A DNA stretch of 64,000 bases, taken from the sequence record MN655999. One strand, given 5' to 3'. A model generated the notes under the pieces. It did not search any database and was not told where the DNA came from. It saw nothing but the letters and a program-made list of their open reading frames with translations. A program made the position numbers and the translations under genes. This stretch comes from Shigella phage Z31. Positions 51,890 through 51,965 of this stretch are shown piece by piece (within the stretch, counting starts at the first letter, position 1; each line of letters opens with the position of its first letter).

Positions 51890-51965
51890 GGCATGGGACG
51901 GAGGAGTTGAACCACTTTGAAACGGTTTTGGAGGCCGTTGCTCATGCCTTAGAGTCTTAACATCG
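51890..51965 (-). other. atypical tRNA-like element (acceptor and T-loop-like motif but no canonical anticodon arm; 9-nt loop CCTCCAAAA on AACGG/CCGTT stem)
   Basis: Acceptor GTGGGAC/GTCCCAT + G + CCA present; T-stem only 3/5 paired; may be degenerate tRNA or other structured RNA. Confidence 0.3.

What the first reader, a model, noticed from the sequence alone, without database searches (positions are those of the whole stretch)
51890..51965. Atypical tRNA-like element with enlarged loop
The element has a 7-bp acceptor stem, discriminator and CCA, and a TTCAACT T-loop-like motif, but no canonical anticodon arm; the best internal hairpin is AACGG/CCGTT around a 9-nt loop. It may be a pseudo-tRNA or a tRNA-like RNA with a non-decoding role.
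Basis: seen in the sequence. Interest (0 to 1): 0.35.

Follow-up and report, generated by a model that had tools for sequence, protein, structure and literature searches.

The report
Hidden extra-loop tryptophan tRNA in phage
Felix O1-like phages are reported to carry tRNAs for every amino acid except tryptophan, but the gap holds a conserved tryptophan tRNA that gene finders miss because it carries an extra, unchanging loop between its acceptor and D stems.

Summary
The element is real. It is not a pseudogene. Sixteen distinct versions from four or more Ounavirinae lineages keep a cloverleaf: 99.2% of pair cells are paired, and 9 of 24 pairs show compensatory changes spread over all four stems. 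The ordinary tRNA-Trp of the related Erwinia phage phiEa21-4 has the same mismatch. The true anomaly is a 6-7 nt insertion (invariant GAUGUUAAGA) between the acceptor stem and the D stem, with a fold compatible with an 8/4 acceptor/T arrangement. Deleting 6 nt of the insertion makes ARAGORN call tRNA-Trp(cca). The bacterial TrpRS identity elements are present: G73, CCA anticodon, A1-U72 or G1·U72, and G5-C68. Trp is the only amino acid missing from the called tRNA sets of the window and of Arno162, and from published Ounavirinae sets. The element and the canonical Trp gene occur in different phage groups. The most likely reading (0.6) is a working, non-canonical tRNA-Trp. Expression and charging are untested. 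The closest precedent is the uncharacterised "E-loop" 8/4 tRNA of soil acidobacteria.

The parts
51889..51971 (-). Whole element: 83-nt non-canonical tRNA-Trp(CCA) gene with encoded CCA. RNA position p corresponds to window coordinate 51972-p.
   Evidence: Sequence read. Covariance model R1 scores 108 bits here, the only strong hit in the window. Cloverleaf supported by covariation and predicted independently by RNAalifold.
51964..51971 (-). Acceptor stem 5' strand, GUGGGACG (RNA 1-8). G1.U72 in this window, A1-U72 in most relatives. G8 may form an 8th pair with C72.
   Evidence: Pairs 1-82 and 2-81 change on both sides (AU/GU/GC; UA/CG). Pair 8-74 is invariant G-C.
51955..51963 (-). Extra loop ('E-loop') AUGUUAAGA (RNA 9-17), occupying the place of the normal 2-nt connector (U8, N9). 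Invariant in all 16 haplotypes.
   Evidence: 0 of 9 columns vary, against 12 of 33 other unpaired columns. Deleting 6 nt here makes ARAGORN call tRNA-Trp(cca) at default settings.
51941..51954 (-). D arm: stem CUC/GAG (RNA 18-20 with 29-31) and loop UAAGGCAU containing the invariant GG.
   Evidence: Compensatory changes U-A / A-U / G-C at the middle pair and C-G / U-A at the inner pair.
51921..51939 (-). Anticodon arm: stem AACGG/CCGUU (RNA 33-37 with 47-51) and loop C|CUCCAAA|A, with a C.A mismatch closing a 7-nt loop.
   Evidence: 4 of 5 stem pairs change on both sides. The same GGC|CUCCAAA|ACC arrangement is in the canonical phiEa21-4 tRNA-Trp.
51929..51931 (-). Anticodon CCA (Trp; reads codon UGG), RNA 41-43.
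   Evidence: Invariant in all 16 haplotypes, while flanking loop positions 32 and 38 vary C/U and A/C.
51901..51915 (-). T arm: 4-bp stem GUGG/CCUC (U.U mismatch in this window's copy; G.U in the other 15 haplotypes) and T loop UUCAACU.
   Evidence: The outer pair switches G-C to U-A in the Moogle and Sf13 haplotypes. Only this window's haplotype has the mismatch.
51889..51900 (-). Acceptor 3' strand CGUCCCAU, discriminator G73 (51892) and encoded CCA (51891-51889).
   Evidence: 25 of the 26 neighbouring tRNA genes also encode CCA.
52394..52422 (-). Context: sigma-70-like promoter TTGACA-17-TATAGT upstream of tRNA-Arg(tct). No terminator-like site lies between it and the element.
   Evidence: Consensus scan, 11 of 12 matches, 0 terminators in 51400-52700. 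This is a consensus match only; co-transcription is inferred.

Best explanation
The element is the phage's tryptophan tRNA. It descends from an ordinary phage tRNA-Trp, of the kind that the related Kolesnikvirus phages still carry. It has gained a 6-7 nt insertion between the acceptor stem and the D stem, which forms a fifth, sequence-invariant loop. G8 can pair with C72 in place of the lost 49-65 pair, which would give an 8-bp acceptor stem and a 4-bp T stem. Inferred mechanism: it is transcribed with the neighbouring tRNAs from the array promoter, cut out by RNase P and 3' trimming down to its encoded CCA, charged by the host TrpRS through G73, C34-C35-A36, the 1-72 pair and G5-C68, and used to read UGG. 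This would complete a phage tRNA set covering all 20 amino acids. Shown here: the conserved cloverleaf, the Trp anticodon and identity nucleotides, descent from tRNA-Trp, and the genomic distribution. Inferred, not shown: expression, charging, use on the ribosome, and what the invariant loop does.
For: (1) Fold: on 16 distinct haplotypes, 99.2% of pair cells form standard pairs and 9 of 24 pairs change on both sides (acceptor 2, D 2, anticodon 4, T 1), against 0-2 in slid controls and 1 of 500 shuffles (13 haplotypes). RNAalifold on an unguided MAFFT alignment predicts the same structure. (2) Decoding features: CCA, U33 and A37 are invariant while positions 32 and 38 vary. (3) Bacterial TrpRS identity elements as listed in PMC9976931 are all present: G73, C34-C35-A36, the first base pair, and minor G5-C68. 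(4) Removing 6 nt of the connector gives a default ARAGORN call of tRNA-Trp(cca). (5) Completeness: ARAGORN finds tRNAs for 19 amino acids, with only Trp missing, both in the window and in the divergent phage Arno162. [quoted passage not shown] (6) Homology and replacement: in phiEa21-4 the model's best hit is its canonical tRNA-Trp (35 bits), which shares the C31.A39 arm. The canonical gene is in Kolesnikvirus-type phages, and none of those appear among the 235 records holding the element. (7) Constraint: window-versus-Arno162 identity of 73% lies within the 56-92% range of the other tRNAs. (8) Context: encoded CCA as in 25 of 26 neighbours, and a promoter-like site upstream with no terminator in between.
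Against: There are no expression, charging or ribosome data. I found no transcriptome for these phages. Position 8 is G rather than the near-universal U8, and the core tertiary contacts (8-14, 9-23) must be rearranged. [quoted passage not shown] The single-sequence fold is no more stable than shuffles (z = -0.56). The window's own copy carries a U.U mismatch in the T stem. The Arno162 and Yersinia P778 copies need a bulge in the acceptor stem, and metagenome copy L236 has two acceptor mismatches. Strict invariance of the extra loop suggests a specific partner, which could point to a non-decoding role.
Confidence: 0.6

Rival explanations
1. It is a tRNA-derived structured RNA that is made and kept but does not decode. 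It could be a decoy or sponge for a host tRNA-directed defence nuclease or modification enzyme, or a regulatory RNA, with the invariant extra loop as the handle for a specific partner.
For: The extra loop is invariant across lineages that differ at 20-24 of 86 positions, which is more typical of a binding site than of a tolerated insertion. The only biochemically tested E-loop tRNA was not charged by the two E. coli enzymes tried (GlyRS and ThrRS), and related irregular tRNAs were charged but not used in translation. Phage tRNAs are proposed to counter tRNA-targeting defences (title and abstract of PMC10264068). Retron Eco2 nicks tRNA acceptor stems, tRNA-Trp included, and most Felixounavirus species tested were not restricted by it. 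That last link is circumstantial only.
Against: A decoy does not need U33, A37, the full TrpRS identity set and an encoded CCA all at once. A decoy also does not explain why the element is exactly the one missing amino-acid specificity in two divergent lineages, or why it and the canonical Trp gene occur in complementary phage groups.
Confidence: 0.22
2. It is a tRNA-Trp whose altered connector and D-arm region changes decoding, like the Hirsh suppressor (G24A) or A9C mutants of E. coli tRNA-Trp, so that CCA also reads UGA stop codons. The Hirsh analogy comes from my own knowledge and not from a tool result.
For: The alteration sits in the position-9 / D-stem region where the known UGA-suppressing tRNA-Trp mutations lie. 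The D stem is short (3 bp plus an A.C apposition).
Against: TGA stops are not avoided: 16 of 72 long ORFs in the window against 8 of 57 in phiEa21-4, which has a canonical Trp. The one striking in-frame ORF-TGA-ORF arrangement is a complete family-A DNA polymerase followed by an HNH-AP2 homing endonuclease, which is an ordinary arrangement.
Confidence: 0.05
3. It is a decaying tRNA-Trp pseudogene disabled by an insertion.
For: Gene finders reject it. Some copies have stem mismatches or bulges. One record has a 1-nt deletion in the variable loop (GE_vB_BS, an UNVERIFIED record).
Against: It is retained in 235 records across several genera. Compensatory changes occur in every stem, and 99.2% of pair cells are paired. 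The anticodon and the insertion are invariant. Its divergence is no faster than that of the neighbouring tRNAs.
Confidence: 0.04
4. The conservation reflects a protein-coding ORF: the 67-aa ORF at 51860-52063 on the minus strand, annotated as 'hypothetical protein' in some records.
For: The ORF reads through the element, and a few GenBank records annotate a CDS here.
Against: Changes are mostly non-synonymous (8 of 10 changed codons against Sf17), with no excess at third codon positions (2, 8 and 4 changes at positions 1, 2 and 3). The Arno162 indels shift the frame and give an unrelated peptide. The ORF runs into tRNA-Ser. The substitutions are pairwise compensatory, as expected for RNA.
Confidence: 0.01

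Closest known systems
Canonical phage tRNA-Trp(CCA) of Kolesnikvirus phages (e.g. Erwinia phage phiEa21-4, NC_011811 24577-24653)
   Same: Same anticodon arm (GGC|CUCCAAA|ACC with a C31.A39 mismatch), A1-U72, G73 and a UUCGAAU T loop. It is the best match of the element's covariance model in that genome. The same SD-like motif lies upstream of it in the same tRNA array.
   Different: It has the standard 7/5 cloverleaf, a U8-A9 connector and a 4-bp D stem, is 76 nt long and is called by ARAGORN. The element has a 9-nt connector beginning with G8, a 3-bp D stem and a 4-bp T stem.
'E-loop' (8/4) tRNA1 of acidobacterial polycistrons (Mukai et al., NAR 2017, PMC5389517; reviewed in PMC7609411)
   Same: An extra loop between the acceptor stem and the D stem, combined with a predicted 8-bp acceptor / 4-bp T-stem arrangement.
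   Different: Those come from soil metatranscriptomes, have U73 and a GCU anticodon, lie next to toxin-antitoxin loci, and were not charged by E. coli GlyRS or ThrRS. This element is in cultured enterobacterial phages, carries a coherent Trp identity set and fills the only gap in the tRNA set. Sequence relatedness was not tested because their sequences were not at hand.
(8/4) tRNA-Ser and tRNA-His of alphaproteobacterial phages, and allo-tRNAs (same paper)
   Same: A 12-bp acceptor/T branch divided 8/4, found in phage tRNA gene clusters.
   Different: These have no extra loop. Allo-tRNAs have a long variable arm and Ser identity, whereas this element has a 5-nt variable region.
tRNA-Sec (Rfam RF01852)
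   Same: It is the only Rfam family giving any hit, because of the 8-bp acceptor stem and the 6-layer anticodon stem.
   Different: The score is 21.3 bits against a gathering score of 47. The anticodon is CCA rather than UCA, and there is no long variable arm or 6-bp D stem.

Membership tests
Canonical bacterial-type tRNA (Rfam RF00005 / ARAGORN cloverleaf) | Score at or above the family threshold | tested here: not met
   No RF00005 hit even at E<=10. The only hit is tRNA-Sec at 21.3 bits. ARAGORN at default settings finds nothing.
Canonical bacterial-type tRNA (Rfam RF00005 / ARAGORN cloverleaf) | 7-bp acceptor stem, discriminator base and 3' CCA | tested here: met
   7 pairs plus a possible 8th, two of them covarying; G73; encoded CCA.
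Canonical bacterial-type tRNA (Rfam RF00005 / ARAGORN cloverleaf) | Two-nucleotide connector (U8, N9) between the acceptor and D stems | tested here: not met
   9 nt (10 counting G8) in all 16 haplotypes, with G at position 8. Deleting 6 nt restores a default ARAGORN call.
Canonical bacterial-type tRNA (Rfam RF00005 / ARAGORN cloverleaf) | D arm with a 3-4 bp stem and G18-G19 in the loop | tested here: met
   3-bp stem with two compensatory pairs, and an invariant GG in the loop.
Canonical bacterial-type tRNA (Rfam RF00005 / ARAGORN cloverleaf) | 5-bp anticodon stem and 7-nt loop with U33 and a purine at 37 | tested here: met
   5 Watson-Crick pairs (4 of them covarying) plus a C.A or C.C apposition closing the loop YU-CCA-AM. 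The same mismatch is in the canonical phiEa21-4 Trp.
Canonical bacterial-type tRNA (Rfam RF00005 / ARAGORN cloverleaf) | 5-bp T stem and a UUCRANY T loop | tested here: inconclusive
   The T loop is UUCAACU or UUCGAAU. Only 4 pairs form; the fifth position is an invariant A.C, and that C can instead pair with G8.
Substrate of bacterial TrpRS (tRNA-Trp identity, per PMC9976931) | Discriminator G73 | tested here: met
   Invariant G in all 16 haplotypes.
Substrate of bacterial TrpRS (tRNA-Trp identity, per PMC9976931) | Anticodon C34 C35 A36 | tested here: met
   Invariant.
Substrate of bacterial TrpRS (tRNA-Trp identity, per PMC9976931) | First base pair A1-U72 and minor element G5-C68 | tested here: met
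   A1-U72 in 9 haplotypes, G1.U72 in 4 (including the window) and G1-C72 in 3. G5-C68 is invariant.
Substrate of bacterial TrpRS (tRNA-Trp identity, per PMC9976931) | Actual aminoacylation with tryptophan | not testable with these tools
   Needs an in vitro TrpRS assay or acid-gel northern blots.
(8/4) / E-loop non-canonical tRNAs (Mukai et al. 2017) | 8-bp acceptor stem and 4-bp T stem (12-bp branch) | tested here: inconclusive
   G8-C72 is possible in every sequence, and RNAalifold draws it. Both bases are invariant, so there is no covariation to separate 8/4 from 7/5 with an A.C mismatch.
(8/4) / E-loop non-canonical tRNAs (Mukai et al. 2017) | Extra loop between the acceptor stem and the D stem | tested here: met
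   AUGUUAAGA lies between the acceptor stem and the covarying D stem.
(8/4) / E-loop non-canonical tRNAs (Mukai et al. 2017) | Common descent with the acidobacterial tRNA1 group | not tested
The element's evident descent from a phage tRNA-Trp makes independent origin more likely.
tRNA-Sec (RF01852) | UCA anticodon, long variable arm, and a score at or above 47 bits | tested here: not met
   21.3 bits, CCA anticodon and a 5-nt variable region.
tRNA pseudogene | Relaxed constraint: stem-breaking changes and loss of the anticodon or identity nucleotides | tested here: not met
   99.2% of pair cells are paired and 9 pairs are compensatory. The anticodon and G73 are invariant. Divergence is like that of the functional neighbours.

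The most novel reading that the evidence does not exclude
A natural five-loop tRNA, with an extra loop between the acceptor and D stems and probably an 8/4 branch, is charged by an ordinary enterobacterial TrpRS and accepted by EF-Tu and the E. coli or Salmonella ribosome. Its strictly invariant extra loop would be a purpose-built handle. It could make the phage's tRNA-Trp invisible to a host tRNA-directed defence or modification enzyme, recruit a phage factor, or alter decoding in a Hirsh-like way. That would make it the first functionally assignable E-loop tRNA and a ready-made non-canonical scaffold that works in E. coli.
Probability: 0.2. Interest if true: 0.75.

Novelty: new variant of a known kind. 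Interest (0 to 1): 0.52.

Why it matters
Felix O1-like phages are classic Salmonella typing phages and current biocontrol and therapy candidates, with hundreds of sequenced genomes. Every annotation I examined, and recent studies of phage tRNA repertoires, state that they lack only tRNA-Trp. Those analyses build codon-usage and 'why do phages carry tRNAs' arguments on that set. If the element works, these phages carry a complete 20-amino-acid tRNA set, and the gap is an artefact of the gene finders. It also places a rare tRNA architecture, a fifth loop between the acceptor and D stems, in a system that can be studied with standard E. coli and Salmonella genetics. Until now that architecture was known only from uncultured soil bacteria and had no demonstrated activity. 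Whether TrpRS, EF-Tu and the ribosome accept it, and what the invariant loop is for, are therefore directly testable questions. The practical lesson is that covariance-based tRNA finders miss tRNAs with insertions outside the anticodon and variable loops, so gaps in phage tRNA arrays deserve a second look.

Tried and rejected
(1) Coding ORF (51860-52063, minus strand): rejected on the substitution pattern and frameshifting indels.
(2) UGA read-through: stop-codon usage shows no TGA avoidance. The in-frame polA-TGA-ORF-TGA arrangement is a polymerase followed by an HNH-AP2 homing endonuclease.
(3) tRNA-Sec: weak hit only, and the defining features are absent.
(4) Helix between the extra loop (AUGU) and the 3' part of the D loop (GCAU/GUGU/GUAU): always pairable, but only through one-sided wobble-preserving changes. 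It would also form an awkward pseudoknot with the D stem. Left inconclusive.
(5) Extra-loop motif as a repeated genomic signal: 13 matches with up to 1 mismatch against 7.2±2.7 expected, with 4 of 100 shuffles as high, and most matches inside coding sequence. Not pursued.
(6) Wider distribution. The exact 15-mer in IMG/VR gave only Felix-, Moogle- and Susp-type copies plus chance 'WDDVK' coding hits. A 3'-half pattern added three new haplotypes from metagenomes. The scan of bacterial and archaeal genomes gave two chance hits with no model match.
(7) MAFFT alignment A4 of the 16 haplotypes misplaced the D-loop gaps, so the model-guided alignment A5 was used instead. Such an alignment leans towards the model's structure. 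A2 (MAFFT, 13 sequences) gives the same result.
(8) 'tRNA-OTHER' annotated in phage UAB_69 is the neighbouring tRNA-Leu(tag), not this element.
(9) The 168-nt tRNA-like stretch in phiEa21-4 does not fold better than shuffles.
(10) Global identities of the flanking spacers (0.58-0.67) are close to what unrelated sequences give under that scoring, so they were not used as evidence.

Full report
**What the window is.** ARAGORN finds 26 tRNA genes, all on the minus strand, between 48509 and 53855. Rfam confirms 24 of them at the gathering threshold. A 1-kb query around the finding matches 278 phage records at up to 99.7% identity, nearly all Felix O1-like myoviruses of the subfamily Ounavirinae. 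The 26 tRNAs cover 19 amino acids, and only tryptophan is missing. The finding lies in the 238-nt gap between tRNA-Arg(tct) at 52114-52190 and tRNA-Ser(tga) at 51786-51875.

**Checking the observation.** Read on the minus strand, the element is:

`GUGGGACG AUGUUAAGA CUC UAAGGCAU GAG C AACGG CCUCCAAAA CCGUU UCAAA GUGG UUCAACU CCUC CGUCCCAU G CCA`

It spans 51971 to 51889 and is 83 nt long.
- The coordinates are one base short at the 3' end and six bases short at the 5' end.
- ARAGORN does not call it. Rfam gives no tRNA hit even at E ≤ 10, only tRNA-Sec at 21.3 bits against a gathering score of 47.
- It is unannotated in almost all of the 235 phage records that contain it.
- The 'tRNA-OTHER' annotated in phage UAB_69 is the neighbouring Leu(tag) gene, not this element.

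**It is a conserved structured RNA, not a pseudogene or an ORF.** I collected copies from GenBank phages, IMG/VR and metagenomes.
- These gave 16 distinct haplotypes, from Felixounavirus, Mooglevirus, Suspvirus, the Pectobacterium phages Arno162 and Wc4-1, Yersinia phage P778 and a divergent metagenome lineage (L236).
- For an explicitly stated cloverleaf, 99.2% of pair cells form standard pairs and 9 of 24 pairs change on both sides: acceptor 2, D stem 2, anticodon stem 4, T stem 1.
- Only 1 of 500 column shuffles reached 9 such pairs, and the slid controls gave 0-2 such pairs with 37-58% pairing. The 13-haplotype MAFFT alignment gives the same picture.
- RNAalifold, run on the unguided MAFFT alignment, predicts exactly this structure: an 8-bp acceptor stem, a 3-bp D stem, a 5-bp anticodon stem and a 4-bp T stem.
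- A covariance model built from the alignment finds one copy per genome at 87-113 bits. Ordinary tRNAs score 40 bits or less.
- Identity between the window copy and the Arno162 copy is 73%, inside the 56-92% range of 24 orthologous tRNA pairs.
- A 67-aa ORF reads through the element. Under that frame the changes are mostly non-synonymous, and the Arno162 indels shift the frame, so coding is rejected.

**What kind of tRNA.** The '9-nt loop' is C|YU-CCA-AM|M.
- The anticodon CCA, U33 and A37 are invariant, while positions 32 and 38 vary. The loop is closed by a C·A mismatch, or C·C in Arno162.
- Erwinia phage phiEa21-4, from the same subfamily, has a conventional tRNA-Trp that is both annotated and called by ARAGORN. 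It has the same `GGC|CUCCAAA|ACC` arm with the same C31·A39 mismatch, plus A1-U72 and G73. It is the best match to the element's model in that genome, at 35 bits. The enlarged-looking loop is therefore an inherited feature of this phage group's tRNA-Trp.
- The bacterial TrpRS identity elements listed in a 2023 review are the discriminator G73, C34-C35-A36, the first base pair, and the minor G5-C68 (PMC9976931). All are present. A1-U72 occurs in 9 haplotypes, G1·U72 in 4 (including this window) and G1-C72 in 3.

**The real anomaly.** Between the acceptor 5' strand and the covarying D stem there are 9 nt (AUGUUAAGA) after G8, where a normal tRNA has two (U8, N9).
- Deleting any 6-nt block within positions 9-18 makes ARAGORN call a 77-nt tRNA-Trp(cca) at default settings. 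This holds for the common and Sf17 haplotypes; for the window's copy only one such deletion does so.
- The block G4 to A17 is identical in all 16 haplotypes. The nine loop columns show 0 variable positions, against 12 of 33 for the other unpaired columns (Fisher p = 0.04). This holds between lineages that differ at 20-24 of 86 positions.
- G8 can pair with C72, the base that would otherwise face A56 as a mismatched fifth T-stem pair. That would give an 8/4 branch. Both bases are invariant, so 8/4 and 7/5 cannot be separated here.
- A possible helix between AUGU of the loop and GCAU of the D loop is always pairable, but only through one-sided wobble-preserving changes. It stays unresolved.

**Distribution.**
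- Arno162, the most divergent cultured carrier, also has tRNAs for 19 amino acids and lacks only Trp. The annotation of phage ekra shows the same.
- The literature agrees. The Felix O1 genome paper's tRNA section and its Table 1, as far as shown, name no Trp tRNA (PMC3185647). [quoted passage not shown] - The canonical Trp gene is found in Kolesnikvirus-type phages: 44 Erwinia records plus a few Salmonella, Hafnia and Enterobacter phages of 84-86 kb.
- None of those genera appear among the 235 records with the element. The phiEa21-4 stretch searched (bases 1-50000, which hold the whole tRNA array) contains no copy of the element.
- In phiEa21-4, Trp sits between Gly and Thr. In the window, Gly and Thr are adjacent.
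- A conserved SD-like motif lies upstream of the Trp gene in both arrangements.
- No bacterial or archaeal genome in the one-per-species collection carries the element.
- Overall, the two forms look like alternative states of one gene.

**Mechanism.** The best-supported reading is a functional tRNA-Trp.
- A near-consensus σ70-type promoter (11 of 12 matches) lies upstream of tRNA-Arg(tct), and no terminator-like site lies between it and the element.
- The CCA end is encoded, as in 25 of the 26 neighbouring tRNAs.
- Inferred steps, not shown here: processing by RNase P and 3' trimming, charging by the host TrpRS, and reading of UGG.
- Points against: G8 in place of U8; a necessarily rearranged tertiary core; weak single-sequence folding (z = -0.56); a U·U mismatch in this window's T stem; a bulge or mismatches in the acceptor stems of the most divergent copies; and no expression data.

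**Rival readings.**
- A non-decoding decoy or regulator is the main rival. It is suggested by the invariance of the extra loop, and by the fact that the only tested tRNA of this architecture was not charged by the two E. coli enzymes tried.
- A Hirsh-like UGA-reading tRNA-Trp is conceivable, because the alteration lies where the known suppressor mutations map. That analogy rests on my own knowledge. TGA stops are not avoided: 16 of 72 ORFs against 8 of 57 in phiEa21-4. The one in-frame ORF-TGA-ORF case is a polymerase followed by a homing endonuclease.

**Comparison with known systems.**
- Mukai et al. (PMC5389517) and a 2020 review (PMC7609411) describe 8/4 tRNA-Ser and tRNA-His in phage tRNA clusters.
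- They also describe, in acidobacterial soil transcripts, 8/4 tRNAs with an 'extra loop (E-loop)' between the acceptor and D stems. Those had U73 and a GCU anticodon and were not charged by E. coli GlyRS or ThrRS.
- The element shares that anatomy. It differs in having a coherent Trp identity, a 5-nt variable region, evident descent from a canonical phage tRNA-Trp, and a host that is a standard laboratory organism.
- I found no report of it.

**Verdict.**
- It is best read as an unannotated, non-canonical tRNA-Trp that fills the reported tryptophan gap of Felix O1-like phages.
- It is a new variant of a known kind.
- Interest is moderate. The structural oddity and the correction to the literature are solid, but function is untested.

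Noticed in passing
window 52033-52070 (minus strand); also L099 24413-24447 and L236 1244-1277: A conserved motif, UAAGGAGGUG(G/A)UCUGUAUCUC, is an extended complement of the 16S rRNA 3' end. 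It is followed by a hairpin whose sequence differs but stays paired: catgtt/aacatg in the window, cctgac/gtcagg in phiEa21-4, ccagac/gtctgg in L236. It lies about 80 nt upstream of the Trp element in 53 fetched loci, and upstream of Gly-Trp in phiEa21-4. The exact pattern is absent from the Arno162, Wc4-1 and Yersinia P778 loci. No conserved ORF follows it. It could be a small RNA, a ribosome-binding decoy or a processing signal.
   Followed up: partly
L099 (Erwinia phage phiEa21-4) 23878-24045: Directly after tRNA-Arg(tct) lies a ~168-nt stretch that ends like a tRNA: T arm with UUCGAAU, an 8-bp acceptor-like pairing GGGUGAUU/AAUCACUC, then G and CCA. A second possible 5' strand (AGUGAUU) lies at 23961. 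ARAGORN does not call it, and its fold is no better than shuffles (z = -1.0). The element's model gives a weak 20-bit hit at 23959-24044.
   Followed up: partly
window 51786-51875 (minus strand): tRNA-Ser(tga), immediately downstream of the element, is the only one of the 26 tRNAs without an encoded CCA. It is also the weakest Rfam tRNA hit (33 bits). In the Felix O1 reference record it is not annotated, and a 'hypothetical protein' ORF46 is annotated just downstream of the element instead.
   Followed up: no
window 13765-17292 (+ strand): A family-A DNA polymerase ORF (909 aa) is followed, in the same frame after TGA plus one codon, by a free-standing HNH-AP2 homing endonuclease gene (177 aa). 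A further 87 in-frame codons follow a second TGA. I judged this an ordinary homing-endonuclease insertion next to polA, with the shared frame a coincidence (about 1 in 9).
   Followed up: yes
L008 (Felix O1) 1-277, and the '2 pieces' hits: The spacer between tRNA-Arg(tct) and the element varies in length among genomes. Felix O1 has an HNH endonuclease gene (ORF45) there, and many genomes differ from the window by about 90 bp. Homing endonucleases appear to shuffle this tRNA array.
   Followed up: no
window 52879-52930 (minus strand) and 51526-51625 (minus strand): There is a sub-threshold partial tRNA match (20 bits, E = 1.6) in the 459-nt gap between tRNA-Lys(ttt) and tRNA-Asp. There is also a ~100-nt hairpin that hits miRNA-precursor models (30 bits) in the gap between tRNA-Ser(tga) and tRNA-Leu(tag). 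Other gaps in the array may hold further unannotated structured RNAs.
   Followed up: no
L236 1339-1422 (metagenome contig JACCDR010813160.1): This is the most divergent copy of the element. It has new compensatory pairs in the D and anticodon stems and an unchanged extra loop. It also has two mismatches in the acceptor stem (U2.U71 and C3.U70), which may be assembly errors or a degenerating copy.
   Followed up: partly
GenBank MG065664.1 ('Campylobacter phage A132') and one 'Staphylococcus' record among the hits: Records labelled as Campylobacter and Staphylococcus phages carry the element at about 94% identity to the Felixounavirus copy. They are probably mislabelled or contaminated records.
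   Followed up: no
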